Counted from the stretch's first letter, positions 750-59,952 are shown. The stretch: DNA of 64,000 nt from a virus (IMGVR_UViG_3300037307_000543:3138-67137), one strand, 5' to 3'. Numbers and translations are program-made. Notes: generated by a model not told the origin, from the sequence alone.

Positions 750-783
750 AAAGTCATGAAGCTAAAAATAGCTTCATGACTTT
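750..783. repeat. Dispersed palindrome copy 1 (may also act as a terminator)
   Basis: AAAGTCATGAAGCTA-AAAA-TAGCTTCATGACTTT just after the 786 stop; followed by a T-run on the minus strand. Confidence 0.85.
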
Positions 784-785
784 GG

Positions 786-1319
786 TTACGCGGACACCCA
801 GGTTATCGCAAGCTCAGTTGCGTTTGCCGGGAAGCCACGATAGAGCTTCCCAAGGATCAGGATCGCTGAAAAAGTGGCATTCCCACCGGCCGCAACTGCA
901 CGAAGGCTGATGTATCGCTGAATGACCGCGGCGTTTGAGCTTGTCACCACGCGAGCATAGGACTCGTCGAACACGTGGCCGAAGTCAAACTCCGCCATAT
1001 AGAGCCCTGCCGCGCTGATAGCTGCCAACGAGAAAGCAGCGTTGCTGTTCGCGTCGCCGTTCGAGTTGGTCAGAGCCGCATCGTCATCCCGAAGAGAAAG
1101 GGTCAGTGTGCCAGCCGTAAGTCCAGACACGTCTGCCACAATTACCCCTTTCGTGGGTTTGATGAATGAGCTGCTGGAATCAAGCCACGAATCAATGCTC
1201 GCACCAAGTTGGGCGGTGTTGTAGCTGTTGATCGTGCTGCCAGCAGTAAGAGTATTAGCAGGAATGAGCCGTCGAATGCTCAGACCGCTCAAGAGTTCAT
1301 GTCTTCCGTCCATTCCCAT
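786..1319 (-). CDS. Putative capsid decoration/minor head protein
   Basis: Small, beta-rich, Ala/Ser/Thr-rich ORF immediately downstream of the major capsid gene; call is by position only. Confidence 0.5.
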   Translation of the reverse strand: MGMDGRHELLSGLSIRRLIPANTLTAGSTINSYNTAQLGASIDSWLDSSSSFIKPTKGVIVADVSGLTAGTLTLSLRDDDAALTNSNGDANSNAAFSLAAISAAGLYMAEFDFGHVFDESYARVVTSSNAAVIQRYISLRAVAAGGNATFSAILILGKLYRGFPANATELAITWVSA

Positions 1320-1332
1320 CGTAACACCTCAC

Positions 1333-2667
1333 TTAGGACATATTCGGATCTGCGGTTGACTGGAGCACTACGAACGCCTTCTCCTGCTCGCAGATTCCAC
1401 CAACACGCGCCGAGGCGCGGAAAGCGGTCATGTTCTGCAAGAAGTAAACGTGTCGGCTCATTTCCACGGAGATCGTCTTGCGCTCTCCAATGAAATAATG
1501 TTTCCAGTCGCCAAGAATCACGTCGCCAGTCGTGCCGAGATCACTCGTGCGGTAGTCCGACATCACGATAGGAATGCCTGCGGCGAATCCGGCAACGCCT
1601 TCGCCAAAGTTATTGTACCCGTAACCTACGTCGATGACGGGTCGCCCGTTTTCGTCAACTTCCTTGCGGAGGTTGTTGAAAACCGCCTTCTTCATAAACC
1701 ACACCGCGTTCGCATCGAACATGGGCGGCAATAGACTGTGCATGTTGAGACAGTCGCGCCATCCTACCCGGTTCGCGCTGATGCGGTCACAGGTGATAAT
1801 GTTGGGAGTATTCAACAGGCCCAGCGGCTGTGAGCCGCCAAGACCGGTGATGAACGACTTGTCGGTGCCATACCAGTACGCTCCCTGGAAGAGCTGTACA
1901 AGCAAGTTGCCGATGTTGATCGCACTGTCAGCAAGAAGCTGATCAGTAATCGGGGTCGATGCAGAGACCTCGTAGCACTTCAGGGTAAGGAACTCGAACT
2001 CCGCCGTGGTGTTCGGCTTTACCCCGCCTTCAGAGGTCCACCGAAGCTCCACGTTACCGAAGAAGTTTTCGCTTCCCTGAGTAAGGTCCTGCTTGAGTTT
2101 AGGCCACTGAATCTCGTCAGTAGCCATAGGCCACACCTGAGCACGCGGCCATACGATGGTCCCCGGAGGAGCGAACTGGAGCATCGCATAGCGGATATCT
2201 TCAGGGACAAAGAGGCCCGCAGAGCTGTCGTCCGCCGACCGCATCGCGGTCGTCATGTCGGTGAGCGTATCCTTCGTGACAATCTGAACGCTATCGCCCT
2301 TTGTCACGAAACGGATTGTCTGACCAGAACGCGCCGCGCCGCGAAGTTTCGCCGCAAACTCGATCATCGGCTCCGAAGCGGTCTCGAAAAATCCTGACTG
2401 ACGCCGCAGCCCCTTCGTGCTGATGTTGTACATCCCAGCATTGACGATAGCTCCCTCGGGAAGCCGATACTGGTCCTCTCCAACCTGCTGGAGAGTACCG
2501 TCGTCAACGACCCCTTTGACACTATGAATCGTTTGAGGAACCGCCTTCTGAAGCTCGGTGATCTTGGTGTTGATGTCCTCAAGCATCCCTTTGGTCTTGA
2601 TCTCAACCTGATCACCGACCGTCTTAGCGAGCATTTCCTCGAACTTTTTCTTGGTAACCTCGTCCAT
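1333..2667 (-). CDS. HK97-fold major capsid protein with N-terminal delta (scaffold) domain
   Basis: AGLFVPEDI, WTSEGGVKP, QPLGLLN, ILGDWKHYFIGER, FRASARVGG motifs; about 130-aa N-terminal extension ending FVTK-G/IVTK-D. Confidence 0.93.
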   Translation of the reverse strand: MDEVTKKKFEEMLAKTVGDQVEIKTKGMLEDINTKITELQKAVPQTIHSVKGVVDDGTLQQVGEDQYRLPEGAIVNAGMYNISTKGLRRQSGFFETASEPMIEFAAKLRGAARSGQTIRFVTKGDSVQIVTKDTLTDMTTAMRSADDSSAGLFVPEDIRYAMLQFAPPGTIVWPRAQVWPMATDEIQWPKLKQDLTQGSENFFGNVELRWTSEGGVKPNTTAEFEFLTLKCYEVSASTPITDQLLADSAINIGNLLVQLFQGAYWYGTDKSFITGLGGSQPLGLLNTPNIITCDRISANRVGWRDCLNMHSLLPPMFDANAVWFMKKAVFNNLRKEVDENGRPVIDVGYGYNNFGEGVAGFAAGIPIVMSDYRTSDLGTTGDVILGDWKHYFIGERKTISVEMSRHVYFLQNMTAFRASARVGGICEQEKAFVVLQSTADPNMS

Positions 2668-2686
2668 TTTGTACCTCGCAACTATG

Positions 2687-22803: not shown

Positions 22804-22835
22804 AGGTCATGAAGCTAAAAATAGCTTCATGACCT
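22804..22835. repeat. Dispersed palindrome copy 2
   Basis: AGGTCATGAAGCTA-AAAA-TAGCTTCATGACCT. Confidence 0.85.
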
Positions 22836-23000: not shown

Positions 23001-23681
23001 CTATTTCATATCTGAAGAATATAAAAATATCTGCTTATGTCTAACTTGTTTACTATTTCTAAAAATTTCAGCCATCTCGCTTATAGAGCGCCCCTTTCTA
23101 AAATGATACGATATTATACAACCAGATACTCCAAAAAATTTTGCCCAATCCTTAAGAATCATGCTGTTCCCTTCATGCTCTATCCAAAAATTGGTTCTTC
23201 TGTTTCTGGCCTGTTCTTTTGAAGTCGCCCATTTGCAATTTCCTGGAGAGTAATATCCGTTGTTATCTATTCTTTCTATCGACATTCCTTTTGGACATGG
23301 CCCCATGTCCTCATAAAAATTTTCAAATGACTTAAGCCAACGATCACAGACCTTAATGCCCCTTGCACCATAGTGACCATAGTATTTGCTATTTTCATTA
23401 TAACATCTCTTGATCATAGAAGACCACACATTATATTCTTTAGTAGTTAAGTTATCTCTAGCATGACCGTGTTTATAATTGACTTTTGCACAAATTTTAG
23501 ACGCAATCTCTTTATGCAAGCACCCACAGCTTTGCGTATAGCCAGCTACCAAATTTCCTCCATAAACAACCTTTTCCGTGCCACAAACACACTTGCACAA
23601 CCAACGACCAGATCCGCTATAAGAAAGAACTAGCAATCTTCCAAATCTTTTACCATTTAAGTCAATGAGTTTTGCCATCAA
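23001..23681 (-). CDS. HNH-family homing-endonuclease-like protein (paralog 2)
   Basis: FGRLLV, CKCVCG, SCGC, YGARGIKVCDRW, SIERIDNNGYYSPGNCKWAT. Confidence 0.8.
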   Translation of the reverse strand: MMAKLIDLNGKRFGRLLVLSYSGSGRWLCKCVCGTEKVVYGGNLVAGYTQSCGCLHKEIASKICAKVNYKHGHARDNLTTKEYNVWSSMIKRCYNENSKYYGHYGARGIKVCDRWLKSFENFYEDMGPCPKGMSIERIDNNGYYSPGNCKWATSKEQARNRRTNFWIEHEGNSMILKDWAKFFGVSGCIISYHFRKGRSISEMAEIFRNSKQVRHKQIFLYSSDMK

Positions 23682-34019: not shown

Positions 34020-35006
34020 TCAAGAAGGAAATTCTGCATCCGGATACTTCTTAATAAAGTCCGACACCTCTGAATTCGGCACATACACCTTCTCTCCATT
34101 AACCTCAAGCACCACATACCTTCCTTTCCAATTCGCCGGAACGGTTAAAGCGTTCTCTACGCTCCACCCGCTCCTTAACCTACTGACAATCAGCTCATAG
34201 TTTAATCCTGTCTTCTTCGCCCACCACTTCATAGAGGCTGTCTTTCCGTTATGAGTTATCGTCTTTGCACTTCTAGGAATATAAGGCTTCGTTAGCGCTT
34301 TTTCCACAGTCCATCCGTTCCTTATTCTGGAGCGCAGCGCTTCCGGATGTATTCCTACCTTCTTTGCCCAACTCCCTATTGGGGCCGTTTCTCCCTTATA
34401 TGTAATTGTCTCTGTTGGCATCCTTTCTTGACAAAGACGGAACAATTTATCTTCCGGCCAATTCCTGTTTAATCTATAATAAATAACATAAGGTGAAATT
34501 CCTACAAGCTCGGCAACAAGAGAAACCGGAAGAAGTTTTCCATTATACTCAACTAACCTGTTAGTTCTTTTATTTCGACATTGCTCTTTCTGGGTGGCCC
34601 ATCTGCAATTGCCAGGCTCATAATCTCCGTCATTATCAATCCTCTCTATCGCATATCCTTCCGGTCTTGGCCCCATATCTTCGCAAAATGCCTCAAATGA
34701 TTTTTTCCATCTATCGCACATCTTTATTCCACGACCGCCATAGTTTTTGTAAGCTCTATTGCCCTTGCTATAACAGCGTTGTTTTATTCCTTTCCATATA
34801 GACCAGAGAGGCCCCTTTTTCTCTTCCATCATTTTCCTTTTTTTTGAGTTGTAGCATGTTCTACATGACTTGATTCCACTCTTAAGGGCAAGACGAGTTA
34901 CTTCAATTTCTTTTCCACAAGAGCATTTACACAGATAGGTTGTTTCTTCAAGTCGCCTTAACACCTTTAGCGAGCCTACTGTAGTCCCTTCGTATGTTTT
35001 GACCAT
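34020..35006 (-). CDS. HNH-family homing-endonuclease-like protein (paralog 4) with three C-terminal DNA-binding repeats
   Basis: YGGRGIKMCDRW, IERIDNDGDYEPGNCRWAT; repeated ITY/HxG...W...G...LRSRI..GWTVE.AL units. Confidence 0.8.
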   Translation of the reverse strand: MVKTYEGTTVGSLKVLRRLEETTYLCKCSCGKEIEVTRLALKSGIKSCRTCYNSKKRKMMEEKKGPLWSIWKGIKQRCYSKGNRAYKNYGGRGIKMCDRWKKSFEAFCEDMGPRPEGYAIERIDNDGDYEPGNCRWATQKEQCRNKRTNRLVEYNGKLLPVSLVAELVGISPYVIYYRLNRNWPEDKLFRLCQERMPTETITYKGETAPIGSWAKKVGIHPEALRSRIRNGWTVEKALTKPYIPRSAKTITHNGKTASMKWWAKKTGLNYELIVSRLRSGWSVENALTVPANWKGRYVVLEVNGEKVYVPNSEVSDFIKKYPDAEFPS

Positions 35007-35169: not shown

Positions 35170-35195
35170 TCATGAAGCTATTTTTAGCTTCATGA
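35170..35195. repeat. Dispersed palindrome copy 3
   Basis: TCATGAAGCTA-TTTT-TAGCTTCATGA. Confidence 0.85.
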
Positions 35196-35301: not shown

Positions 35302-35676
35302 TCACTTGAGCCTTGTCCAGTCTGCTCTCTTTACGCTCTCCCTCTGCTTCCTGTCTAGCTCTTTGATTCTTTCCTTGCGTAGCCTTTGTTTCTCGTCATC
35401 TGTTTTCAACCTGGACGAGGTGGGCCGAGAGGGACAAAGCTCTCCTTCTTGCTCTTCAGCTCTTTCCTTATCAACCTTGTCATCCATTGCCCAAGATTCT
35501 CTACGTAAGGAAACATTTTCCTGATCTCCTCTTTCTCTTCCTCGCTCAGCTCCGCAAGGGTCTCCATCTATAATTCTCCTTCTACAATACGCGCTCACAG
35601 ATTTGTGCTCCTGGAAGGCTTTGAGCCTTACTTGTTCATATTCCTCCACGCTCATAACTACGCTTATGATCTTCAT
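35302..35676 (-). CDS. Hypothetical protein (possible ribbon-helix-helix N-terminus)
   Basis: KIISVVMSVEEYEQVRLKAFQEHKSVSAYCRR. Confidence 0.45.
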   Translation of the reverse strand: MKIISVVMSVEEYEQVRLKAFQEHKSVSAYCRRRIIDGDPCGAERGRERGDQENVSLRRESWAMDDKVDKERAEEQEGELCPSRPTSSRLKTDDEKQRLRKERIKELDRKQRESVKRADWTRLK

Positions 35677-38688: not shown

Positions 38689-38910
38689 TCATTGGATTTT
38701 TTCGTTCATGAAGCTATTTTTAGCTTCATGATCTAACCACTCCAGGACCAAGCTTCTCAACTCTTGCTGACATTTCGGGCATAGCCGAAAATAGTACCCG
38801 TCCATAGACTGCCGCTCTTCGACCTTCAGGGAGATGCTTCGCAGATGGTCTCGTGCTCCGCATCTAATACACTCCTTTGTGTCAAGCCTATGGACGGGTA
38901 AATCGGTCAT
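38689..38910 (-). CDS. Small zinc-finger protein containing palindrome copy 4
   Basis: CIRCG...CPKC. Confidence 0.6.
   Translation of the reverse strand: MTDLPVHRLDTKECIRCGARDHLRSISLKVEERQSMDGYYFRLCPKCQQELRSLVLEWLDHEAKNSFMNEKIQ
38706..38731. repeat. Dispersed palindrome copy 4 (intragenic)
   Basis: TCATGAAGCTA-TTTT-TAGCTTCATGA, encoding HEAKNSFM on the minus strand. Confidence 0.85.
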
Positions 38911-39200
38911 GCGTTCATGCCTGCTTTCAGCGGGCTTGATACACGGAAAGAGATCGCCTTGCGAGCAGGCACTTGATGCACCTTCCCATCGATAGGACTC
39001 TTGAGAGTCCTACCCTTGCGCTGTTTCACCTTGAAGTCTCCAAGCCCTCTGAACTGTACGTCACCGCCTGCTTTGAGCACGTCAATGGCGGTATCCAGAA
39101 ACAGATTCACCACACCCTTGATATCGGCTTTGGAGAATCCTTCCGACTTGGAATATACCATCTCGATCAAATCGCCGGTTGCTACTTTTTTCGCAGCCAT
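38907..39200 (-). CDS. hup: HU/IHF-family DNA-binding protein
   Basis: VQFRGLGDFKVKQRKGRTLKSP...VPARKAISFRVS; start at ATG 39200 after GGAGGG. Confidence 0.88.
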   Translation of the reverse strand: MAAKKVATGDLIEMVYSKSEGFSKADIKGVVNLFLDTAIDVLKAGGDVQFRGLGDFKVKQRKGRTLKSPIDGKVHQVPARKAISFRVSSPLKAGMNA

Positions 39201-39267
39201 GTTTCCCTCCAGAAGATATTGAAATTTGAACACTCTCCGGATAACATAAGTAAAATCAGAATGCAAG

Positions 39268-45553: not shown

Positions 45554-45856
45554 TCAAAAAAACGCATACGGATCAAGTCCTTCTCTTTTTGCATCATAAT
45601 AGCCACACATACCGCTATAATGACCCTCAAGAACGGTACTAGTCCTCGACGCAAACATCTTCATTTCCCAATATGCTTCTTCTTCTCGTTCTCCTTCCAG
45701 AGCCCACCTTCCGCCATGGAGACAAGTAAACACTACATCATGACATCCCAAAATGCTGTCTCCTACCTCTGGATATTTCCACTTACTGAGAAAACCATTA
45801 TCAATAAGATAATCTCTTCCTCCATAATAGCCGCACCTGATCCTTTTCATCTCCAT
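45554..45856 (-). CDS. Hypothetical protein
   Basis: ORF track. Confidence 0.55.
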   Translation of the reverse strand: MEMKRIRCGYYGGRDYLIDNGFLSKWKYPEVGDSILGCHDVVFTCLHGGRWALEGEREEEAYWEMKMFASRTSTVLEGHYSGMCGYYDAKREGLDPYAFF

Positions 45857-47787: not shown

Positions 47788-47819
47788 GGGTCATGAAGCT
47801 ATTTTTAGCTTCATGACCC
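47788..47819. repeat. Dispersed palindrome copy 5
   Basis: GGGTCATGAAGCTA-TTTT-TAGCTTCATGACCC, 10 bp past the SSB stop. Confidence 0.85.
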
Positions 47820-47829: not shown

Positions 47830-48711
47830 CTACGCGTGATTCAGAGCCTTTTTCAGCTCATCCTTCTTCTTCCCGCCGGGAAGTGCCTTCACCGAGGAGC
47901 CGCCGCTGATTGAAATAGTATGAGCGAAGTCATACAGAAAATCGGGAATCGTTGCCTGATGCTTGTCAATCAGCTCCATGAGATCCTGATTGGAAAACGG
48001 AAGCTGATCATCGTTCATCGAGCGAGGGAGAAATTCCTTGATGTCTGGCCAAGAATCGACATTGCGAAATTCCTCCGGGATTGGATACGGCTTCAGAAGC
48101 GGCTTAGCATCCCAATAGAACTTGTTGGTCGGCTTACCGCTAATGAGAATGTTGTGTCCTGTATCCCAATCAAGAAGTTGATCAGGCCCGAAGTTGTCTC
48201 GGTCCTTGAGCCACTCATTGAAAGACTGAACGAGCATCCCAGGCACTTTGATGATCTTGAGAGCCGGAAGCGATCCGAAATCCGGTGGCTTCTTTTCGCC
48301 CTCGTCCTTTGTGTACTTGACCAGCAGGGCTCTGACCAGACCATACGTCCGAAGCTTGATTCCGCCCTTTCCTTCCTTGTCTCCGGCGATAATCTCGCTT
48401 TTGCGGCTCAGTTTGCCCATGGTGATGCCCCAATTGATCGCGTTGCAGATAATGCACTCGTCTCCATAGAGAGTCTTCGGACACGGAACCGAGTACGAGT
48501 AGCCCTCATCAGTTTCAGGAAGCACCGAACGGTGCTCCCCAAGAGGAACCATCCAGTCGGGAGAGGAACACGGCAAAAGTCTGATCTCGTATTCTCCGCG
48601 CCAACGCATTGAAAGCAAAAGGTTTTGCGCCGGATCGTACGTCCGCATAGCCTGATCGACTACCGCTGTGCGTTCCTCCACCCACGAAAAGTCGAATATA
48701 GGCTCGCTCAT
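47830..48711 (-). CDS. T4 gp32-like single-stranded DNA-binding protein
   Basis: YEIRLLP, EH..., CPKTLYGDECIIC, DWDTGHNI; sits among recombination genes. Confidence 0.7.
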   Translation of the reverse strand: MSEPIFDFSWVEERTAVVDQAMRTYDPAQNLLLSMRWRGEYEIRLLPCSSPDWMVPLGEHRSVLPETDEGYSYSVPCPKTLYGDECIICNAINWGITMGKLSRKSEIIAGDKEGKGGIKLRTYGLVRALLVKYTKDEGEKKPPDFGSLPALKIIKVPGMLVQSFNEWLKDRDNFGPDQLLDWDTGHNILISGKPTNKFYWDAKPLLKPYPIPEEFRNVDSWPDIKEFLPRSMNDDQLPFSNQDLMELIDKHQATIPDFLYDFAHTISISGGSSVKALPGGKKKDELKKALNHA

Positions 48712-49472: not shown

Positions 49473-49821
49473 TTTCTTCTTCCTCCGTCTCCTCAACCTC
49501 TTCGGGCAGCTCGCCCAAACCAGGGATCATGACCTCGGATTCCAATTCCATAAGCCACGCCTGAGTCGAATCGTTCAGATGATAGACCTGATTCATCAAC
49601 TCGTTAGTTAGGTTAAGAACCTGAAATACACGATTCGAGAACTCGAACGAAAGATTTTTCATCGCAGAACTTCGGAACTGTCCGAGTCGGTCTTGAACCC
49701 GCCCGAGCATCATGCAGATTTCCATGTTACGCTGCTGAACGATCTTTCGCGCGTGGAGTACAAGATCGAACTCCTCATCGGCAACAACTTGATTCCCCTC
49801 TTCAGTTTTCTTCTTCACCAT
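49465..49821 (-). CDS. Hypothetical helical protein
   Basis: Likely start MVKKKTEE at 49821. Confidence 0.55.
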   Translation of the reverse strand: MVKKKTEEGNQVVADEEFDLVLHARKIVQQRNMEICMMLGRVQDRLGQFRSSAMKNLSFEFSNRVFQVLNLTNELMNQVYHLNDSTQAWLMELESEVMIPGLGELPEEVEETEEEENE

Positions 49822-52800
49822 CTTCTGTCTCCTCGTAGATTTTTTGCAAGTATGCCATTGCGGCATCGTACGCCTTTTGGTTATTGGCAGCCCCTTCTCT
49901 GAGAAGCGCTGCGGGATGTATGCAGTAAACAACCGGAACGATCTCTCCATTAACCGATTCGGGATATGCCCGCGCCTGCTCAGCCAGAAGCCGAATCCCG
50001 CCTTCCTGCTTCCTGAAAAAGAAAAGCGGAGTATTGCCAAGCGCGAGAATGATGCGCGGCTTCAACAAAGCAATCTCCTGAGACAGATATCCAAAGCACT
50101 CGGTGAGCAGCGGCCTCGGAAGTTTATTATCCTTCGGACGACACTTGTAAACGTTTGTCACAAACCACTTGCTGCGATCAAGTCCAATTGCCTTCAGACT
50201 GTTCTCAAGATAAACACCTGCCTTTCCTACAAATGGTCTTCCCTGATCTACTTCCTGCTCTCCGGGAGCCTCTCCGATAATCATGATCTGAGGATCTTGG
50301 CTAAACTCAAATGGAACCGGAGTTTCGTATGCCTTGTACAGATCACATTTTTGACACTTCGATATGGTATTTGCCAACTCCAAAAGCTCCAGTTCGTTAC
50401 AAGACATCCCGAATTCTGGTTTTACCTCCGGCAAGAACACCCCTGGAAGCATAGTCATGAGAAGGGTATTACGCTCAGACTCGGAATACACTTCTTCGCC
50501 GGAATAGACCTTTTCCCAAATGGCGGGATCTTGAGTCCCATCATTGATCTTGTCGATATGGCCCAAAGCATGATAGGTGCTCACGTTGAGATTCCGAAAA
50601 CACCCAGCGGCTATCAGCGCCCCAAGAACCTTTTTATTAACCGTCCTTTTCGGGACTCTGATTCTGAAATCTTCGAGAGATCTAAACTTTCGTTGCTCTC
50701 TTGCCTCCAAGATTGCGTCAACTGCGGCTTTGCCGACCGCTTTGATGCTATCCAATCCCACAAGGAGTTTTTCATCATATATGCGAAAGCCACCGAGCGA
50801 AGTGTTAATTTCTGGGAGCGTGATTTCGATACCGAGTCTATGAGACTCCACCAGAAAGCTCGCCCTTTTACCTTCATCGGGAGTACACGCATACAGTGCA
50901 GCCAAATATTCCATCGGGTAATGAAGCTTAAGCCACATTTGCCTGACTGCGAGTTCTGTGTATGCAACTGCATGAGATCGGTTGAACGAGTAGCGAGAAA
51001 AGTTTGCCAAATCGCTAAAGAGCCTCTCTGCGATGGAGTTAGGCATGTCAGAAGTTTTTTCACAGCCTCGGACGAATCTTTCACGGTCTTTCTCAAATTC
51101 TTCCTTCCCTTTGCTCTTGGCGATAACTCGCCGCATTTGATCCGCGGCGGGCATGTCATATCCCGCTACCCACCGAGCAATCTGCATGATCTGTTCCTGA
51201 TAGATGATAACACCGAAAGTTTCATCGCCTATGCCCTTAAGATATGACGCGTAAGGCTTAAGGCTAATTCGTCCACCCCTTGTAAGAGTGTTGATATAGC
51301 GCACCACATAGTCAGCCATCATTCCGGAATCCATTGGCCCCGGTCTCCCAAGAGCATTGATGTCAGCAAGAGTATTGAATGACGTTATTGGATGGAGCTT
51401 CTTGCAAAGGTCCGTCATTGCGCGAGTCTCAAACTGAAACGTTCCGACAGTGTGTCCCTCGCCAAAGGCGCGGCACACTTCCTCAGATCTGACATCAACC
51501 GTATTCCAGTCTATGTCTATCCCGTGACGCTCTTTGATAAATCTTCTCGCTTCAGCAACGATATCGAGCGAGCGCAGGCCCAGCACATCAAGCTTCACCC
51601 AGCCGAGATATTCCACATCGGACATTTCCCAGTTCACGCACCAGTCGTCGCCACGCTTTTCCAGCACCGCATATTCAGAGATCTCGTCGCTGCTGACCAC
51701 GATACCGGCTGCATGTTTTCCTGTCTGGCGGAGGGTTCCTATGACTCCTCTTGCGTAGTCAACTATTTGAGCTGCATTCTTGATGTCTTTTACCTTGAAC
51801 GCAAGCCTCTGCCAGTCTCCTTCAGTCTCCACAGATTCAACGCTCTTGGTCAGCTCCTTAGACTTCCAGTAATCGACTTTGAAGTACCGAGCTACGTCAG
51901 TAATGGCCGACCGAGGCTTCAGTTCGGAAAACGTATTGATGTTCGCAACACGCTCCTCACCGTATCGCGTTCTTAGGTACTCTAAAGCCTCGTGCCGTCG
52001 CGATTGAGGAAAATCAAGATCGATGTCGGGATAATCGGTACGTTCAGGATTCAAAAAGCGCTCAAAGAGCAGATCGTTCTCAAGCGGGTCAATTTGGGTA
52101 ATTCCAAGTAGGAAACACACCAATGACCCGCTTGAGCTTCCCCTCCCCGGAGACAGTTCCATACCCATACCCCGAGCCCACTCAACCAAATCATAAACCA
52201 GAAGGAAGTAGTCACTAAACGCCTTCTTTGCAATAACATCAAGCTCGTGTACCATTTGGTCTCGATACTGCATTATTTGTCCGGGAGTAGGGAATTTCTT
52301 TTTTTCCAGATATCTTTTCAGGCTTTCGGTAGCGATATCGGTTAAAACGCTATGAGATTCTCCTTTCCCAATCCGAGGAAGAACGATATTTCTTTTTTCC
52401 AGATAATACTCGATCTTATCAGCGATTACATCTGTCATTTCAAGCGCCTTTTCCCATGTTTCCGTTGGAAGATAATCAAGAGTATCTCCGCATTTGAAAA
52501 CCATTTCATAGTTCTGAGCGAGATGAAGTCCACGAAGATCGAATTCCAGTTTGCCTCCCGTGTTAAGACTTAGAAGAAAATCGTGATAACGAGAATCTCC
52601 TTCGTTCACATAATGAACGTCGTTGGTAACAACCAGTGGCAATCCGGTTTTACTTGCCAACTCATACGCCTTAAGATTTGTCCCTTGCTGGCCTGGAAGT
52701 GGAACAGGCATGAGTTCGAGATAGACATCACGCTCCGGGCTATGGAGAACATCGAGAAGGTTCTCAATGTTGGGATGATTAAGTAACCCGTGCATACAAG

Positions 52801-53185
52801 CGGTTCCGATAACCACATCAGAAAGAGTCGCCAGGAGAGACGGATCAACTCTCGGACGATAATAGAAGTTGCGGTGAGCTTCATTCATAACGCGAATCAG
52901 ACTCTTCCATCCTTTTTCATTCTTCGCGAGGATCACCACGTGATAAACCGACTCTCCTTTCGTGCGTTCGGACGCGTCGTCCACCATGTACGCCTCTACT
53001 CCCAGAATCGGCTTAATGTTGTGTTCTTTACACGCTTTCGCAAACCTCACGTGGCCGGAGATTGATCCATGATCCGTAATGGCAAGAGCCTTAAACCCCC
53101 TTTCAGCCGCAGCCGCAGCAAGAGCCTCCGGAGAGGCAAGACCATCCAAGAGAGAATAAATACTATGAACATGAAGATGAACCAT
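49802..53185 (-). CDS. dnaE: DNA polymerase III alpha (PHP + Pol C core) fused to a C-terminal family-4 uracil-DNA glycosylase
   Basis: HLHVHSIYSLLDG, ITDHG, TNDVHY, PGRGSSSGSL, PDIDLDF, KLDVLGL, FNRSHA; then CQKC, IGEAPG.QE, PFVGKAG, NVYKCRP, HPAALLR. Confidence 0.93.
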   Translation of the reverse strand: MVHLHVHSIYSLLDGLASPEALAAAAAERGFKALAITDHGSISGHVRFAKACKEHNIKPILGVEAYMVDDASERTKGESVYHVVILAKNEKGWKSLIRVMNEAHRNFYYRPRVDPSLLATLSDVVIGTACMHGLLNHPNIENLLDVLHSPERDVYLELMPVPLPGQQGTNLKAYELASKTGLPLVVTNDVHYVNEGDSRYHDFLLSLNTGGKLEFDLRGLHLAQNYEMVFKCGDTLDYLPTETWEKALEMTDVIADKIEYYLEKRNIVLPRIGKGESHSVLTDIATESLKRYLEKKKFPTPGQIMQYRDQMVHELDVIAKKAFSDYFLLVYDLVEWARGMGMELSPGRGSSSGSLVCFLLGITQIDPLENDLLFERFLNPERTDYPDIDLDFPQSRRHEALEYLRTRYGEERVANINTFSELKPRSAITDVARYFKVDYWKSKELTKSVESVETEGDWQRLAFKVKDIKNAAQIVDYARGVIGTLRQTGKHAAGIVVSSDEISEYAVLEKRGDDWCVNWEMSDVEYLGWVKLDVLGLRSLDIVAEARRFIKERHGIDIDWNTVDVRSEEVCRAFGEGHTVGTFQFETRAMTDLCKKLHPITSFNTLADINALGRPGPMDSGMMADYVVRYINTLTRGGRISLKPYASYLKGIGDETFGVIIYQEQIMQIARWVAGYDMPAADQMRRVIAKSKGKEEFEKDRERFVRGCEKTSDMPNSIAERLFSDLANFSRYSFNRSHAVAYTELAVRQMWLKLHYPMEYLAALYACTPDEGKRASFLVESHRLGIEITLPEINTSLGGFRIYDEKLLVGLDSIKAVGKAAVDAILEAREQRKFRSLEDFRIRVPKRTVNKKVLGALIAAGCFRNLNVSTYHALGHIDKINDGTQDPAIWEKVYSGEEVYSESERNTLLMTMLPGVFLPEVKPEFGMSCNELELLELANTISKCQKCDLYKAYETPVPFEFSQDPQIMIIGEAPGEQEVDQGRPFVGKAGVYLENSLKAIGLDRSKWFVTNVYKCRPKDNKLPRPLLTECFGYLSQEIALLKPRIILALGNTPLFFFRKQEGGIRLLAEQARAYPESVNGEIVPVVYCIHPAALLREGAANNQKAYDAAMAYLQKIYEETEDGEEEN

Positions 53186-54314: not shown

Positions 54315-54326
54315 TTTGTCCTCCTT

Positions 54327-55652: not shown

Positions 55653-55816
55653 ACCTTCCTCTCCTTCATAACTTTATCATAAGCATGCTCGGCTTGTTCA
55701 CGAGTCGTGTTTATGTTTTCGACTGCTTGAGTGAACATTATTGATCTGACCATAAGTTCACGACGAAGAACTGGATCTTTGAGAATCAATGGAATGTTCC
55801 ACCTTTTTCTTTTCAT
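55610..55816 (-). CDS. Hypothetical protein
   Basis: ORF track. Confidence 0.5.
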   Translation of the reverse strand: MKRKRWNIPLILKDPVLRRELMVRSIMFTQAVENINTTREQAEHAYDKVMKERKVWRKRMSTSSRNSS

Positions 55817-57684
55817 TGTGTTACCCTATTTAAGATTTCATCCATTAAGTGACCGACATTTCGTCTTACATCATGAGTGCTACTTAACACTTTATTTCTC
55901 TGGTGTCCAGCGAAATCTTCGCGAGGCTGTCTCACAAGCGGCTTTATATCTGGCTGAAAGTGAGCAAACTCCTGATAATCCTCTAGTGATCGCTTGCTTA
56001 TGAGATTGGTAAAAAGTACATGCTCTCCATGTTTCCAGACCTGAGCCTTTATCCACCAATCGTAGTAGGCATCAGATTCATCCGCCATCCTACGAGCTTT
56101 GGCAAGTATCTTTATCGACCGAGGACTCAATTTACGGTTTGAGTCAATACCAAACCAGTAAAGCACGCGACCAAGGAAAATCTGATTTCTTGATTCCTCG
56201 TCATAGAGACCATACTCAACGAAACAGTCCGGATCGAAGCCTGAGAACATGGTCTTATCCAAGGGGTCGTAGTCGAGATTCATCCACATACGGTACTGGA
56301 GATCACCAAGTCCTTTGCAACGCTCGCGAGCGACAATCGATTTCCAGTTCGGGTAGTCGATCTGGATGTGGGCAATCCGGAAGTATCTTTTGACCAGGGC
56401 AGTCTCTCCTTCCTCACGAAGGATCTTCTCGAACTTGTAATATCTCGGTATTCTCGCCGTCACAAACGGCTTCTTGAGAAGAGACGCGATTTTCCTTTCC
56501 AGCTCGGTTTTGTATTCAGCGGCTTCTGGAGCAGGGCTCAGGCGATTAGGACATGAAGCTATTTTTAGCTTCATGAACTTGTCCTCTTCCGGAGGCTTCT
56601 CTGCTGGCTTATCGTCATCATCCCATTCGTCGTCTCCTGGAAGGCTGACGAACCTTTTTGCGTTTTCATCGAGGGGCTTATAGAATCCTACCGGCCGTCG
56701 TCCTTTCATTTTCTCTTTGACGATCTCAAGCTCCTTCCTCAGTCTCTCGATATCACGGCAGCGATCTATCGAGTGGAAATAAAGCTCAGGCTCCTTCAGT
56801 TCCTTGATTCGGAAAAACTTGCTGAAGACTTCATCTTGGAGAAAATCGGCGGCGGAATCCCTGTCCACTGGGATGTTATCATTTTTCTCTTCAATACTTT
56901 CCTCATGGGGAACCAAACAATCCCCAGTGGGATTTTCTTCCCATGCAAAATGAGGCTCTGCGAATTTTGCATGTACACATCCTTCTTTCTTTCCTTCTTC
57001 TATATATAATATATTCTTCCTTACGGGGCCAACGTTGTCACCACTTGATATCGTTGGAGAATTTGGGCACTTTTTCTGGTTTTCTCTATAATTTCTCATG
57101 GTGTCAATTTTGACACCACTTGATATTGTTGATGAATTAGGATTTTCTTTGTGATTTAGCATGGTGTCAATATTGTCACCACTTGATATTGTTGGACTTT
57201 TGATAAGGTCCACCTCTGGAAAGAGTTTACCATAGCCCTCGGGATAATCCCAAGCACTATTTTCTGTAAATTCTCTAGTGGTTTTACGGAGATAGGAAAA
57301 CAAACCTATCCAATCAATGATAAAATTTCTTCGGTTGTTTGCCCTGGTAGGTCGATACAAGCAGGAAAAAACGTGGCCTTTCAATTCCTGGAGAACGGAC
57401 GAGACTTTCCTTTTGATTGTTCGCTCGGAAAACCCCCAAATATCTACAATAGTCTTGCCTGAAGGGTTGCACTGACCGGTTTTGAAATTGAAGAATTCGG
57501 CAAGGATGGAATAGAGGAATTGCTTTACTCCAGGTTTCAGGACTCCGTTCGGAATTGACCTGATGCACTTCTTTACAGCAGCTTTGTCGAGATTAAATGG
57601 AGAGTGATTGAACCTCTTATACTCAACTATGGTATCTTCCCATGACGTGTACGACACTTGTTTTCTCCGTGCAATTTCTTCCAC
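55813..57684 (-). CDS. Replication-initiator-like protein with N-terminal winged helix and internal repeats
   Basis: KQFLYSIL...QCNPSGKTI...SERTIKRKV resembles lambda-O-type helix-turn-helix domains; three S(P/S)TISSG repeats; lies upstream of the helicase. Confidence 0.6.
   Translation of the reverse strand: MEEIARRKQVSYTSWEDTIVEYKRFNHSPFNLDKAAVKKCIRSIPNGVLKPGVKQFLYSILAEFFNFKTGQCNPSGKTIVDIWGFSERTIKRKVSSVLQELKGHVFSCLYRPTRANNRRNFIIDWIGLFSYLRKTTREFTENSAWDYPEGYGKLFPEVDLIKSPTISSGDNIDTMLNHKENPNSSTISSGVKIDTMRNYRENQKKCPNSPTISSGDNVGPVRKNILYIEEGKKEGCVHAKFAEPHFAWEENPTGDCLVPHEESIEEKNDNIPVDRDSAADFLQDEVFSKFFRIKELKEPELYFHSIDRCRDIERLRKELEIVKEKMKGRRPVGFYKPLDENAKRFVSLPGDDEWDDDDKPAEKPPEEDKFMKLKIASCPNRLSPAPEAAEYKTELERKIASLLKKPFVTARIPRYYKFEKILREEGETALVKRYFRIAHIQIDYPNWKSIVARERCKGLGDLQYRMWMNLDYDPLDKTMFSGFDPDCFVEYGLYDEESRNQIFLGRVLYWFGIDSNRKLSPRSIKILAKARRMADESDAYYDWWIKAQVWKHGEHVLFTNLISKRSLEDYQEFAHFQPDIKPLVRQPREDFAGHQRNKVLSSTHDVRRNVGHLMDEILNRVTQ
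56552..56575. repeat. Dispersed palindrome copy 6 (intragenic)
   Basis: CATGAAGCTA-TTTT-TAGCTTCATG. Confidence 0.85.
57035..57196. repeat. Iteron-like direct repeats (candidate replication origin)
   Basis: CACCACTTGATAT(C/T)GTTG at 57039, 57114 and 57177; perfect palindrome GGTGTCAA-TT-TTGACACC at 57100-57117; AT-rich run near 57001. Confidence 0.7.
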
Positions 57685-57863
57685 TCCGCTTCATAACGTC
57701 AATAGGACATGGTAGTACAGCCAAAACTACAAGAAAGTCAAGAAAAATTTTGTATGAAGAAAATTTAATGGGGAAGCGTATTGCACGGAGGACGCCTCCC
57801 CATCGCAGGGGGTTATGAAGTGTCTCAATAGTGCTCAAAATGTCTCTAAATGTCAAGAAAAAA

Positions 57864-59282
57864 CTAAACCGATTCCCAAAAAGATTCAGCGAGTAGCTTT
57901 TCCATTGTAATTTTCTCTACATCGAAAGCCTCGTCCCGCCTGCAAAGAGACATCCGGTCCTCACTATGAGACCACAGGAGATCGTGACTCATGTCAAAGA
58001 AATCGAAGATCACCGTCTTGTCCTTCTTCTCAACCTTGGTGATCCCACGGCCGTACTTCTGGTAACTTTGAATGGCTGACTTGTAACCAGAAGCAACGAT
58101 TACTGATTCCAAATACGGTATGTCTATACCTTCATTGAAAATGCGTGTTGAGATAAGTGCCCCTATGTCTCCAGCCTGAAGCCGTAAAATGGCATCTGCC
58201 CTCTTTTTTGACGATGCGGAACCGGATACATATTCAACCGGAATACGGTCCCCAATGTGATTCATAATGTTTTTGCCATGATCGAGCTTCTCGACAAGTA
58301 TGAGGCTTGGCATACCTTTTCGGTACATTCGTGAGGCTATGAGAGCAATAGCCATATTGCGTTCCTCGTGGTTCACTACACCATTTTCGTATATCATGTT
58401 CCAGTCTTCGCCCCATATTTGGTCAGCGATCTCCACGAAATAAATCTTCGGCTTCGCTATCCTCCCGACATCGACCAGTTCCTTCATGCGAACTTCGTAA
58501 ATCAGTGGTCCTGTTATGGCCATTGATGCGAGCTTATTCTCTTTTCCAGATATGAGAGCCGTTGCAGAGAGTCCCAGACGGTATCTTGCAGACTTCAAAT
58601 GGTAAGCAACCTTCTGATACGTCTCTGAGGCTCGGTGGACCTCATCGAAAATCACAAACTCGCGGGATTCGAGAAAGTCAATTGCCGCGTCTGGATTGGA
58701 TGAAAGTGCTCGCCCCAGACTTTGGATCGTGGCAACCGTAACCCTTGAGGGACTCCAGGTTCCCTCTCCTATCACTCCTGGATCGATGTGGGCCTTCTCC
58801 TGGTACTCTCTGACCGTCTGGTGGAGGAGATCCTTGGTGTGGACGACAAAAAGCGTAGGGACGGCTAAGATTTGCGTACAGGCGATCCCTATGACGGTCT
58901 TACCTGACCGCGTGGAGAGCTTGCATATCCCTCGCTTGTACTTGAACAAAGCCTCTATGGACTTGTGCTGATGATCGCGAAGCTCTACGGTAAGATGCGG
59001 CTCTTTGAATTCGATAGAGGTTTTCTCATCTCGACGGTCCCCAATCTTGTACTCGATATTCTCTTTCTTCAATTTTTTGATGATCTCAGGAAGAAGACCT
59101 GTTGCGAAAGACTGATAGCGAGCGCTAAAAAAGCTCTTCTTCCCGTCCCACCGTCCTTGTTTGTATGCGAGTGAATACCGAGCCCCCTTGGTAAAAAATG
59201 TCAAATGGTCGGCAATCACTCGCACCTCATCCCTTGGTCCTCTTACGTAAGACCACACGTTGTCGAACGCGATTTCGATCAT
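57864..59282 (-). CDS. Superfamily-2 (UvsW-like) helicase
   Basis: LRDHQ, STRSGKT, FDEVH, GLSAT, NEGIDIP, QKYGRG. Confidence 0.88.
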   Translation of the reverse strand: MIEIAFDNVWSYVRGPRDEVRVIADHLTFFTKGARYSLAYKQGRWDGKKSFFSARYQSFATGLLPEIIKKLKKENIEYKIGDRRDEKTSIEFKEPHLTVELRDHQHKSIEALFKYKRGICKLSTRSGKTVIGIACTQILAVPTLFVVHTKDLLHQTVREYQEKAHIDPGVIGEGTWSPSRVTVATIQSLGRALSSNPDAAIDFLESREFVIFDEVHRASETYQKVAYHLKSARYRLGLSATALISGKENKLASMAITGPLIYEVRMKELVDVGRIAKPKIYFVEIADQIWGEDWNMIYENGVVNHEERNMAIALIASRMYRKGMPSLILVEKLDHGKNIMNHIGDRIPVEYVSGSASSKKRADAILRLQAGDIGALISTRIFNEGIDIPYLESVIVASGYKSAIQSYQKYGRGITKVEKKDKTVIFDFFDMSHDLLWSHSEDRMSLCRRDEAFDVEKITMEKLLAESFWESV

Positions 59283-59902
59283 TCACTTTTCTCCATTGGA
59301 AACGGATAAATCTCGATACTGTTTCCGATATTGAGATTAATGTTATGTCGAAGAGACTTGTGAAAAATAATCGATCTCGTGATCACCTCGTGCGTAAACT
59401 CAGGAGCGATGTCCAAAAGAGCTTCCACAGCCTTGAAGAGTGCATCACCCTCTGGTTTACCCATATGAGCGTTTGCAAAGTAGGTAAGCCAGCTAAAGAG
59501 CAATCTGTGTATTCCGGCTACTCTGAGCGCCGTTGCTGCACTCAGCATTTTCCCAAAGGCATATCCCTCGAAAGGAACCTTTTTGTCGATAAGGTCAATG
59601 ATGACCCGAGCAGCGAGAATAGCTCCTGGAAGATCTTCTTCTGAAATACGGACAGAGGTAGTAGGATTTTCGTTCATGGAGATCAGTTTTTTTCCGAATT
59701 CCCGATAGCCTTCCATAGCTGTCTCGATCACCAAATCTGCCAGCTTCTTGATCACGTCAGGATTTGCGAAGAACATCGCTATTTGAAGATCGTTGACAGG
59801 TTTGAGAAACATACCTCCACATTCCTTGTTGAGGCTGCACTTCTCACATCCGAACCTCTCACACATCTCCTCCATCTTTTCTCTCAAATCATTGATATCC
59901 AT
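59279..59902 (-). CDS. Hypothetical protein
   Basis: Start at ATG 59902 after AAAGGAG. Confidence 0.6.
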   Translation of the reverse strand: MDINDLREKMEEMCERFGCEKCSLNKECGGMFLKPVNDLQIAMFFANPDVIKKLADLVIETAMEGYREFGKKLISMNENPTTSVRISEEDLPGAILAARVIIDLIDKKVPFEGYAFGKMLSAATALRVAGIHRLLFSWLTYFANAHMGKPEGDALFKAVEALLDIAPEFTHEVITRSIIFHKSLRHNINLNIGNSIEIYPFPMEKSE

Positions 59903-59918
59903 ATTTCTTTCTCCTTTG

Positions 59919-59952
59919 TTCGACCTGAAGCTATTTTTAGCTTCAGGTCGAA
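59919..59952. repeat. Dispersed palindrome copy 7 (symmetric variant)
   Basis: TTCGACCTGAAGCTA-TTTT-TAGCTTCAGGTCGAA. Confidence 0.85.

What the first reader, a model, noticed from the sequence alone, without database searches (positions are those of the whole stretch)
750..59952. Seven dispersed copies of a 20-bp-core palindrome with symmetric variation
Seen: TGAAGCTA-(T4 or A4)-TAGCTTCA at 750, 22804, 35170, 38706, 47788, 56552 and 59919. The outer arms differ between copies but often stay complementary (AAAG/CTTT, AGG/CCT, GGG/CCC), and copy 7 changes both arms together (CCTGAAG/CTTCAGG). At least two copies are inside ORFs, several lie within about 10 bp of stop codons, and both orientations occur. 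Inference: symmetry itself is selected. Options are a dispersed centromere for the ParB-like protein (copy 7 follows its stop; phage N15 has dispersed partition sites), an operator, a packaging or processing signal, or a REP-like hairpin.
Basis: partly seen in the sequence, partly recalled or inferred. Interest (0 to 1): 0.7.

Follow-up and report, generated by a model that had tools for sequence, protein, structure and literature searches.

The report
Dispersed phage palindrome, likely ParB-type docking site
Seven identical copies of one palindrome are scattered through an uncultured phage genome, and they most likely serve as docking sites for a phage DNA-binding protein (a ParB/KorB-like protein is the best candidate), while several also form RNA hairpins at gene boundaries; this kind of repeat is already known in phages, but its job has rarely been shown.

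Summary
There are seven exact copies of TGAAGCTA-W4-TAGCTTCA, against none expected by chance, and the 67.9-kb virus record holds no degenerate copies. Six copies have at least 10-bp arms (five have TCATGAAGCTA). The outer arms vary but stay complementary.

Five copies lie outside real coding sequence, although only about 9% of the window is non-ORF. One copy (c6) is translated inside the initiator-like gene, where TGA has become TGT.

The key new result concerns related phages. All share a UDG-PolIII-alpha, DnaB, DnaG, RecA and SbcCD module. At least five carry their own multi-copy palindrome "dialect"; three more show a single palindrome. Some slots are shared: before recA in five of five, and near the parB-like gene in six of six. 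In some dialects the RNA hairpin is too weak to matter (-0.5 to -7 kcal/mol), so the conserved core is probably read as DNA.

The phage encodes an orphan ParB-family protein, with an N-domain plus HTH that folds like pNOB8 ParB, KorB and Noc.

Best reading (about 0.45): KorB/parS-like binding sites, several of them embedded in longer hairpins that act at the transcript level. No ParA gene, phage RNA polymerase gene or matching CRISPR array was found. The binding protein and the function remain unproven. This scan has noted similar dispersed palindromes in other phages.

The parts
750..783 (.). Copy c1. It has 15-bp arms (AAAGTCATGAAGCTA) and a T4 centre on the sense strand. It begins 2 nt after the TAA stop of gene 786..1319, the last gene of the head block. 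It is followed by TTTTTCT, then a second hairpin, then a sigma70-like promoter (TTGACC-17-TATCCT at about 698).
22804..22835 (.). Copy c2. It has 14-bp arms and a T4 centre on the sense strand. It lies 170 nt after the HNH gene 23001..23681 and 19 nt before the ATG at 22790, which opens the head/late gene block. An AAGAGGA ribosome-binding site follows directly.
35170..35195 (.). Copy c3. It has 11-bp arms and sits at the tip of a longer hairpin of about 26 bp with an internal loop (about 35153-35213, -30.5 kcal/mol). It lies in a 296-nt gap after the NikA/RHH-like gene 35302..35676, about 130 nt before the sigma70-like promoter of the HNH gene 34020..35006.
38706..38731 (.). Copy c4. It has 11-bp arms, and the arms extend to 24 nt at 79% complementarity. 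It lies in the last 13 codons of ORF 38689..38910, where it is read as HEAKNSFM. It is 17 nt before the ATG at 38692 of the next small ORF. An HU-like gene (38907..39266) lies just upstream.
47788..47819 (.). Copy c5. It has 14-bp arms followed by TTTTAG. It lies 10 nt after the TAG stop of the 293-aa gene 47830..48711 and 19 nt before an ATG that leads into the UvsX/RecA-like gene. Five related phages have a palindrome in this same slot.
56552..56575 (.). Copy c6. It has 10-bp arms and lies inside the 623-aa HTH initiator-like ORF 55813..57684, where it is translated as MKLKIAS. The flank reads TGT where the other copies have TGA, which keeps the frame open. It sits in the variable linker, about 450 bp after three iteron-like repeats.
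59919..59952 (.). Copy c7. It has 15-bp arms with a double compensatory change (TTCGACC.../...GGTCGAA). It begins 10 nt after the stop of the parB-like gene and lies 21 nt before the ATG at 59902. An AAAGGAG ribosome-binding site follows.
59962..61251 (-). Candidate trans-acting factor (an inference, not shown). This is an orphan ParB-family protein, called as 417 aa from 61215. It has a ParB N-domain (DGHTR and NVERRHL motifs), a K/E-rich linker, an HTH domain and a C-terminal helical domain.

Best explanation
The invariant 20-26-bp core is a double-stranded DNA binding site for a dimeric, phage-encoded DNA-binding protein. The seven sites together form a genome-wide set, comparable to the 12 OB operators bound by KorB on plasmid RK2, to parS and NBS sites, or to the dispersed repressor sites of phiC31 and L5. 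The best candidate binder is the orphan ParB/KorB/Noc-like protein encoded next to copy 7. Because the sites are palindromes lying in transcribed DNA between co-directional genes, each also forms an RNA hairpin. At several positions this hairpin has been lengthened by copy-specific flank pairing (c1, c2, c3, c5, c7), or given a U-run (c1, c5), so that it also acts at a transcript boundary as a terminator, attenuator, or processing or stabilising hairpin. What is shown: the copies, their anatomy and positions; the lineage-specific dialects and shared slots in relatives; and the ParB fold of the neighbouring protein. What is inferred: that a protein binds the core, that this protein is the ParB-like one, and what binding achieves (a transcriptional roadblock or insulation at unit boundaries, or genome organisation).
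For: (1) All seven copies are identical over the 16 arm bases and the A4/T4 centre, and no degenerate copies exist. This is typical of parS/OB-type sites and not of terminators or RNase III sites.
(2) The centre is invariant in composition but occurs in both orientations relative to transcription. The relatives L007 and L008 show the same. This fits a symmetric DNA reader.
(3) Relatives with the same replication gene order carry different palindromes of the same kind, and at least five of them have several copies: L007/L048, L008-L011, L013/L047, L170 and L175. This is what co-evolution of a site with its reader would give.
(4) In L013, L175 and Rhizobium phage RHph_X66 the arms are only 7-8 bp, the flanks do not pair, and the RNA hairpin is worth only -0.5 to -7 kcal/mol. 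In L013, three of the four copies directly follow a canonical terminator. The core function therefore cannot depend on hairpin strength.
(5) Copies are embedded in coding sequence, with the frame adapted to them: c6 here (TGA changed to TGT), and copies inside the initiator-like ORF in L008 and L170 and inside a 1015-aa ORF in L011.
(6) The neighbouring 417-aa protein folds as a ParB N-domain (Z 9, rmsd 2.1 A). It also gives a two-domain N-plus-HTH match to pNOB8 ParB-N, KorB (8qa9), Noc and Spo0J.
(7) A palindrome lies within about 600 bp of the parB-like gene in six of six genomes with data; in L174 only that one copy is visible.
(8) L007 and L013 share both a GTTGG core and a VK-type recognition helix, whereas the other four proteins have an AQQ-type helix. 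This is weak evidence.
(9) For the added hairpin layer: 5 of 15 pairs covary, each copy's own flanks pair better than swapped flanks, c3 sits in a 26-bp stem, and U-runs follow c1 and c5.
Against: No binding has been shown, and the host is unknown. Copy-specific complementary flanks are not expected of a pure protein site, so a second layer or a mutational bias has to be invoked. The ParB-like protein lacks the GERRxR CTP box (it has DGHTR instead) and most resembles pNOB8 ParB-N, which in its own system reaches the centromere through an adaptor protein (from my own knowledge). This phage and L170, L174 and L175 have similar recognition helices but different palindromes. None of the strong sigma70-like promoters overlaps a copy, so a classical operator role at those promoters is excluded. 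Other DNA-binding proteins lie near copies and are equally untested: a NikA/RHH-like protein, an HU-like protein, an HTH_17 protein and the HTH initiator.
Confidence: 0.45

Rival explanations
1. The copies are purely RNA-level hairpins that punctuate long co-directional transcripts, acting as terminators or attenuators, as RNase III-type or phage NYN-RNase processing sites, or as 5'/3' stabilisers. On this view their sequence identity comes from concerted evolution or cassette-like spread, not from a DNA reader.
For: All copies lie in transcribed DNA. They form hairpins of -18 to -26 kcal/mol with z-scores of -4.5 to -9.8. Arm covariation and pairing between a copy's own flanks are both seen. 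Copy c3 has a 26-bp stem with an internal loop, like a T7 RNase III site. Copies c1 and c5 carry U-runs. Many copies in this phage, L007 and L008 end 0-4 nt before a ribosome-binding site. In L170, L007 and here (c1, c3) a copy lies after a stop codon and before a sigma70 promoter. A NYN ribonuclease gene is conserved in this phage, L007 and L008.
Against: All 20 bases, including the loop, are invariant, yet the loop flips between A4 and U4 in the RNA. Five of seven copies lack a U-run. The dialects in L013, L175 and RHph_X66 form negligible hairpins. L013 already has canonical terminators beside its copies. Copies in the middle of large ORFs are hard to reconcile with termination.
Confidence: 0.22
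2. The copies form a true dispersed partition centromere for a plasmid-prophage, like the four dispersed SopB sites of phage N15.
For: A ParB-fold protein with an HTH is encoded beside c7. The sites are dispersed and some lie in coding sequence. No integrase was seen.
Against: No ParA or Walker-type partner was found among the roughly 55 ORFs scanned (same calls). The record is about 71% complete, so absence is not proven. The CTP-box motif is absent. The gene content (own replisome, UvsX, SbcCD, several HNH genes) looks lytic.
Confidence: 0.07
3. The copies are single-stranded DNA or cruciform hairpin signals for replication or recombination. They could serve as extra origins, as primase or helicase loading sites, or as programmed SbcCD/UvsX entry points.
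For: Copy c6 lies about 450 bp from iteron-like repeats inside the initiator-like gene, and L008 and L170 also have a copy inside that gene. AT-only centres favour cruciform extrusion (from my own knowledge). The phage encodes DnaB, DnaG, PolIII-alpha, UvsX and SbcCD. Arm covariation is seen.
Against: There is no strand or orientation logic along the genome. The short-arm dialects cannot extrude. Copies are tightly placed at gene boundaries.
Confidence: 0.1
4. The copies are a small mobile or recombination-spread palindromic cassette of the REP/MITE or PeSL type.
For: The copies are identical and occur in both orientations. HNH homing-type genes lie next to c2 and c3, and a TnpB gene is present. 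Some copies sit before early promoters, as in T4-type PeSLs (PMC4122927).
Against: The same slots are filled in relatives that share only 41-46% PolIII identity and have unrelated palindrome sequences. No RAYT or TnpA gene and no target duplications were found. The repeated promoter family does not carry the palindrome. No multi-copy occurrence was found elsewhere.
Confidence: 0.05
5. The copies are promoters or start signals for an unrecognised phage RNA polymerase or sigma factor, with an N4-like hairpin-promoter logic.
For: The copies are phage-specific conserved sequences 12-35 nt upstream of start codons. In L013, three of the four copies lie between a canonical terminator and the next gene.
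Against: No RNA polymerase or sigma gene was found among the scanned ORFs. The elements are palindromic and their orientation is free. Some copies lie too close to the start codon or inside ORFs.
Confidence: 0.05

Closest known systems
KorB and its 12 OB operators (TTTAGCSGCTAAA) on IncP plasmid RK2; more broadly ParB-parS and Noc-NBS
   Same: All involve one short, near-invariant perfect palindrome repeated around a replicon of about 60 kb, at promoters, between genes and far from promoters. The protein here matches KorB, Noc and Spo0J over both domains.
   Different: No ParA/IncC partner or KorA was found. The CTP-box GERRxR is replaced by DGHTR. The sites are longer (20-34 bp), have a 4-nt AT centre and carry copy-specific complementary flanks. 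Binding is untested.
The 17-bp repeat of Cluster O mycobacteriophages (TGTTCGG-NNN-CCGAACA, more than 30 copies; PMC4351075)
   Same: Both have invariant inverted arms and a centre that is mostly TTT or AAA in either orientation relative to transcription. In both, copies are mostly intergenic with some inside genes. In both, the phage has a ParB-like domain protein, no ParA and no evident lysogeny. The function of the Cluster O repeat is unknown, and its authors predicted a dimeric DNA-binding protein.
   Different: The sequence and host are different. The arms are shorter (7 bp), there are many more copies, and no flank covariation has been reported.
Dispersed repressor sites of phiC31 and the stoperators of mycobacteriophage L5 (18-30 sites per genome; stated in PMC4557955)
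   Same: Many copies of one protein-binding site are spread over the whole phage genome, largely between genes, and act on transcription elongation or unit boundaries rather than only at promoters.
   Different: Those phages are temperate and have an identified repressor. L5 sites are asymmetric and their orientation matters. No repressor or integrase was found here.
Dispersed SopB centromere sites of phage N15
   Same: Palindromic ParB-family sites are scattered in a phage genome, some of them in functional regions.
   Different: N15 has a SopA partner and a plasmid-prophage lifestyle. Neither is shown here.
T7-type RNase III sites and T4-type PeSL terminator/promoter cassettes (PMC4122927, PMC2839356)
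   Same: Both are conserved hairpins between co-directional phage genes at transcript boundaries. Copy c3 has a two-stem shape, and c1 and c3 precede early promoters.
   Different: Those elements are not perfect invariant palindromes and have a fixed orientation. PeSLs include the promoter itself, whereas here the repeated promoter family is separate from the palindrome.

Membership tests
ParB-family protein with dispersed palindromic sites (parS / OB / NBS type) | A short, near-invariant perfect palindrome in several copies on the replicon | tested here: met
   There are 7 of 7 identical cores, with none expected by chance.
ParB-family protein with dispersed palindromic sites (parS / OB / NBS type) | A ParB N-domain plus HTH DNA-binding protein encoded on the same replicon | tested here: met
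   The AF2 model has pLDDT 81. The N-domain matches at Z 9 and rmsd 2.1 A. The two-domain match reaches pNOB8 ParB-N, KorB, Noc and Spo0J.
ParB-family protein with dispersed palindromic sites (parS / OB / NBS type) | A site close to the parB gene | tested here: met
   Copy c7 starts 10 nt after the stop codon. A palindrome lies within about 600 bp of the gene in six of six genomes with data.
ParB-family protein with dispersed palindromic sites (parS / OB / NBS type) | The CTP-binding box GERRxR in the N-domain | tested here: not met
   The aligned motif is DGHTR here, and DG(H/Y/F)(T/S)R or EGHTR in the homologs.
ParB-family protein with dispersed palindromic sites (parS / OB / NBS type) | Specific binding of the protein to the palindrome | not testable with these tools
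   This needs EMSA, DAP-seq or ChIP-seq.
Type I partition system (ParABS, N15 Sop type) | A ParA/SopA Walker ATPase partner | tested here: not met
   No such hit was found among about 55 ORFs scanned with PHROGs and Pfam, including the rest of the record. The record is only about 71% complete.
Intrinsic (Rho-independent) terminator | A stable hairpin directly followed by a U-run on the sense strand | tested here: not met
   Only c1 (UUUUUCU) and c5 (UUUUAG) have a U-run. The other five copies are followed by ribosome-binding sites or coding sequence.
RNase III processing site (T7 type) | An intercistronic stem of about 20 bp or more, usually with an internal loop | tested here: inconclusive
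   Copy c3 has about 26 bp with an internal loop. The others have 10-15 contiguous bp. Cleavage was not testable.
REP/RAYT or MITE-type mobile palindrome | A cognate transposase and presence/absence at orthologous sites | tested here: not met
   No RAYT or TnpA gene was found. Slots are conserved across divergent relatives. No multi-copy occurrence was found elsewhere.
Solitary CRISPR-repeat mimic (RNA anti-CRISPR, PMC10651486) | The same sequence occurs as the repeat of a CRISPR array | tested here: not met
   All hits in metagenome and GTDB genome scans are single copies, with no arrays. There is no fixed asymmetric handle and the orientation varies.
N4-type hairpin promoter | A phage RNA polymerase, and a hairpin at a fixed distance from the transcription start in one orientation | tested here: inconclusive
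   No RNA polymerase family hit was found. Orientation is not fixed. Transcription starts are unknown.
PeSL terminator/promoter cassette (T4-type phages) | A stem-loop immediately followed by a conserved early promoter, forming one repeated unit | tested here: not met
   The TTTTTCTTGACA promoter family (7-8 copies) does not carry the palindrome. Only c1 and c3 lie 60-130 nt upstream of such a promoter.

The most novel reading that the evidence does not exclude
A clade of uncultured, apparently lytic phages of about 70-100 kb uses an orphan, CTP-box-less ParB/KorB-like protein together with lineage-specific dispersed palindromes as a genome-wide control or insulation system. The same sites double as RNA hairpins at operon boundaries, and one lies inside the replication-initiator gene next to the origin iterons. 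This would be a KorB-like global circuit moved from plasmids into virulent phages, with protein and site co-evolving as 'dialects'.
Probability: 0.25. Interest if true: 0.6.

Novelty: new member of a known kind. Interest (0 to 1): 0.42.

Why it matters
Dispersed invariant palindromes are seen again and again in phage genomes. Examples include Cluster O mycobacteriophages, phiC31 and many windows of this scan. Their reader and purpose are mostly unknown. This case offers a tractable pairing: one site of known sequence, one nearby ParB-fold candidate, and at least five relatives with different multi-copy dialects in the same genomic slots. That pairing makes a specificity-swap experiment possible. 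If the pairing holds, it would show how ParB/KorB-type proteins are used outside partition, to organise or insulate transcription in virulent phages. It would also give portable, orthogonal protein/site pairs. If it fails, the copies are a clean example of sequence-homogenised boundary hairpins.

Tried and rejected
- Close relatives carrying the same palindrome: none found. IMG/VR gave 2 unrelated single hits. Metagenomes gave 32 single hits with no other similarity to the window. GTDB genomes gave scattered single hits of the 14-base core. I therefore rejected a host regulator box and a CRISPR-repeat mimic.
- The 623-aa ORF has no near-length homolog in the word-indexed search, but it does align to the L007 and L013 proteins.
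- The UvsX-based locus search found nothing. There is no nucleotide match in cultured phages and no ParB-like homolog in cultured phages.
- The genome search could not reach the metagenome records of L007 and L008. One tblastx script returned no answer. The phiC31 genome paper PMC148434 is not held, so the phiC31 details rest on PMC4557955 and my own knowledge.
- The mini-ORF idea (ATG...TGA, 7 codons inside the palindrome): rejected, because it is not conserved in the dialects of relatives.
- A G-U against A-C bias in flank mismatches, as a test of the sense RNA: the counts are balanced and uninformative.
- An ordered switch of centre orientation along the genome (five A4 copies, then two T4 copies): a similar run is seen in L007 but not in L008. 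I treat it as chance.
- Rfam and tRNA scans: no hits.
- An activator site at a fixed distance from promoters: rejected, because the distances vary from about 20 to 130 nt.

Full report
**Observation.** The pattern TGAAGCTA-W4-TAGCTTCA occurs exactly seven times in the window, with cores at 757, 22810, 35173, 38709, 47794, 56554 and 59926. Shuffles give 0.00 expected matches, and allowing up to three mismatches adds nothing. The window is bases 3138-67137 of a 67,871-bp IMG/VR virus record, estimated at about 71% complete, and the rest of the record holds no further copy. The arms extend to 15, 14, 11, 11, 14, 10 and 15 bp. Five copies share TCATGAAGCTA. Copy 6 departs at the outermost arm position. 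Copy 7 replaces GTCA/TGAC with GACC/GGTC on both sides.

Scored against the 15-4-15 hairpin, 5 of 15 pairs change on both sides. The covariation score is 0.203 against 0.074 in shuffles, and none of 500 shuffles reaches it. Each copy's own left and right flanks fold together better than swapped flanks do (mean -25.2 against -19.6 kcal/mol). Copy 3 sits at the tip of a stem of about 26 bp with an internal loop (-30.5 kcal/mol).

**Context in the window.** Essentially all genes run on the minus strand. Read along that strand, the window contains:
- a ParB-like gene, a UvsW-type helicase and a 623-aa HTH initiator-like gene;
- DnaB, DnaG and a UDG-PolIII-alpha fusion;
- a UvsX/RecA-like gene, SbcD and SbcC, a NYN ribonuclease and an HU-like gene;
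- a NikA/RHH-like gene, a cluster of small genes with strong sigma70-like promoters, TnpB and four HNH paralogs;
- a head block with portal, an S78 protease polyprotein and the major capsid protein.

No RNA polymerase, sigma factor, ParA or integrase was recognised.

The copies sit as follows:
- c7 lies 10 nt after the parB-like stop and 21 nt before the next ATG.
- c6 lies inside the initiator-like ORF and is translated as MKLKIAS. Its flank reads TGT where every other copy with that flank has TGA, which removes the stop codon.
- c5 lies 10 nt after a stop and 19 nt before the ATG that leads into uvsX, and is followed by TTTT.
- c4 lies in the last 13 codons of a small gene and 17 nt before the next ATG.
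- c3 lies in a 296-nt gap after the NikA-like gene and about 130 nt before a promoter.
- c2 lies 19 nt before the first gene of the head block.
- c1 lies 2 nt after the last stop of that block. It is followed by TTTTTCT, a second hairpin and a promoter.

Only 8.8% of the window lies outside long minus-strand ORFs, yet five copies lie outside real coding sequence (P about 1e-4). For c2 and c7, the longest-ORF model overlaps only because of upstream alternative starts. On the sense strand the centre reads A4 in five copies and U4 in c1 and c2.

**Relatives.** Nothing elsewhere carries this palindrome in several copies. The UDG-PolIII-alpha fusion, however, has relatives at 41-46% identity, and their contigs keep the same gene order. 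At least five relatives carry their own multi-copy palindrome family:
- L007/L048: TTTCTYAG-GTTGGTAA-WW-TTACCAAC-CTRAGAAA, six copies, arms up to 17 bp.
- L008 to L011: TAACTCCGGTCA-YR-TGACCGGAGTTA, seven copies on two contigs.
- L013/L047: GTTGGAAAAAYTTCCAAC, four copies.
- L014 and L012: one long palindrome each.

Relatives found through the ParB-like protein add more:
- L170: AAAGTGGTGACA-A-TGTCACCACTTT, three copies.
- L175: CTGTTACATGTAACAG, two copies.
- L174: TGTTGCTCAATTGAGCAACA, one copy visible.

The distantly related cultured Rhizobium phage RHph_X66 has TAAGTAAG-NN-CTTACTTA six or seven times, 12-64 nt upstream of start codons.

Three regularities stand out.
- The gap between a gene of about 300 aa and recA holds a palindrome in all five genomes where it can be seen. 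In this phage that copy is c5.
- A copy lies inside the initiator-like ORF in this phage, in L008 and in L170.
- A palindrome lies within about 600 bp of the parB-like gene in all six genomes with data.

Symmetric double changes recur within genomes: G>A with C>T in L008, C>T with G>A and CAG>AT in L007, and G>T with C>A twice in RHph_X66.

**DNA or RNA?** The hairpin reading has real support:
- covariation, own-flank pairing and the long c3 stem;
- U-runs after c1 and c5;
- frequent placement 0-4 nt before a ribosome-binding site;
- placement after stop codons and before sigma70 promoters in L170, L007 and here.

Several facts argue that the conserved core is read as duplex DNA by a symmetric protein:
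- The core is invariant down to the loop, yet the loop flips relative to transcription.
- In L013, L175 and RHph_X66 the arms are 7-8 bp with no flank pairing. Predicted RNA stabilities are only -6.7, -0.5 to -7.0 and -3.1 kcal/mol.
- In L013, three of the four copies sit immediately after a canonical GC-rich terminator with a T-run, so they are not needed as terminators there.
- Copies persist inside large ORFs.
- Every lineage has a private sequence in shared slots, which is the signature of a cis site co-evolving with a trans factor.

Symmetric flank variation could reflect a second, local function of the hairpin. It could also partly reflect hairpin-templated (quasipalindrome) mutation. 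That is an idea from established knowledge and was not tested here.

**Candidate reader.** The 429-aa ORF next to c7 is called as 417 aa.
- It has weak ParB hits in PHROGs and a sequence match to the pNOB8 ParB N-domain (5k5a, E 9e-4).
- About 15 full-length homologs exist among 1.8 billion representative proteins, and they gave an AlphaFold model with mean pLDDT 81.
- Residues 115-203 superpose on CTP-binding ParBs at Z about 9 and rmsd 2.1 A.
- Residues of about 100-370 match pNOB8 ParB-N (Z 8.6-8.9, 194-203 residues aligned), KorB (8qa9; Z 7.7, 172 aligned), Noc and Spo0J across the N-domain plus HTH.
- The CTP box is DGHTR rather than GERRxR.
- Homologs sit upstream of the helicase in L007, L013, L170 and L175.
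- The putative recognition helix is AQQ(K/A)(Q/R)(Y/F) in this phage, L170, L174 and L175, and xVK-type in L013 and L007. L013 and L007 also share the GTTGG core. That agreement is weak, and it is offset by the different palindromes among the AQQ group.

Other DNA-binding proteins near copies are untested alternatives: the NikA-like, HU-like and HTH_17 proteins and the initiator.

**Conclusion.** The most economical account has two layers. The invariant core is a KorB/parS-like protein docking site, with the ParB-like protein as the best candidate reader. At several loci the flanks lengthen the palindrome into a functional transcript-boundary hairpin. I used it as a lead and tested the ParB part here by fold and by gene neighbourhood.

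I put about 0.22 on a purely RNA role, about 0.1 on a replication or recombination hairpin, and less on an N15-type centromere, a mobile cassette or a phage-polymerase promoter.

**Comparison with known systems.** The closest are:
- KorB and its OB sites on RK2, and ParB-parS or Noc-NBS. These share the same protein architecture and the same site logic. The differences here are that no ParA or KorA was found, there is no CTP box, and the sites are longer with an AT centre.
- The 17-bp repeat of Cluster O mycobacteriophages. It has invariant arms, a TTT/AAA centre in either orientation, a ParB-like protein without ParA, and an unknown function (PMC4351075).
- The dispersed repressor sites of phiC31 and L5 (PMC4557955).
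- T7 RNase III sites and T4-type PeSL cassettes, for the hairpin layer (PMC4122927).

It is therefore a new member of a known, poorly understood kind. Its value lies in the set of dialects and the candidate reader, which make the question testable.

Noticed in passing
window 57005-57194: Three iteron-like repeats of about 52 nt, spaced 63-75 nt apart. Each contains a palindrome such as TGGTGTCAATTTTGACACCA. They lie inside the variable linker of the 623-aa HTH initiator-like gene, an arrangement like lambda O and its origin, so this is probably the replication origin. The palindrome resembles the dispersed palindrome of relative L170 (GTGGTGACA-A-TGTCACCAC).
   Followed up: partly
window 698, 28397, 29034, 30487, 33894, 34023, 35044, 35711, 57856 (minus strand): A family of strong sigma70-type promoters (tttttcTTGACA-N17-TAnnnT) with an AT-rich upstream element, several of them repeated over about 31 nt. 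They mark early units and show that the host uses a standard sigma70 consensus. None overlaps the palindrome.
   Followed up: partly
window 19150-20025, 23001-23681, 24626-25276, 34020-35006: Four paralogous HNH endonuclease genes (phrog_374 and phrog_3377; a 184-nt repeat is shared by three of them). They look like free-standing homing-type genes, and two of them neighbour c2 and c3.
   Followed up: partly
window 49802-53185: The DNA polymerase III alpha subunit is fused to a uracil-DNA glycosylase domain (PF03167). The fusion defines a small clade of uncultured phages at 41-46% identity.
   Followed up: partly
window 63442-63991: A long tandem array of 12- and 18-nt units (27 or more registers) inside coding sequence at the window's end, probably a low-complexity repeat protein.
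   Followed up: no
window 40461-41072: A NYN-domain ribonuclease gene (Pfam E 1e-20). It is conserved downstream of SbcC in relatives L007 and L008 and is a candidate processing enzyme if the hairpins are cut.
   Followed up: no
L049 (Rhizobium phage RHph_X66, MW960030.1) 1660, 3604, 5346, 24515, 29235, 38397, 41926: This cultured phage carries its own dispersed palindrome, TAAGTAAG-NN-CTTACTTA, 12-64 nt upstream of genes (PhoH, DnaB, SbcD, ThyX, rIIA). A symmetric G>T with C>A variant occurs twice. I found no description of it in the papers searched.
   Followed up: partly
L013 2120-2176, 9893-9967, 14928-14987: In this relative, three of the four palindrome copies sit 2-30 nt after a canonical GC-rich terminator with a T-run and 15-35 nt before helicase, PolIII and the recA-side gene. 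No sigma70-like promoter is visible in between.
   Followed up: partly
L172 (record bases 1-1416, beyond the window's low end): Nucleotide-sugar epimerase and aminotransferase genes follow the head block. Together with the hexapeptide acetyltransferase (window 45847-46605) and the dCTP-deaminase-like gene (23678-24358), they may point to sugar or DNA modification.
   Followed up: no
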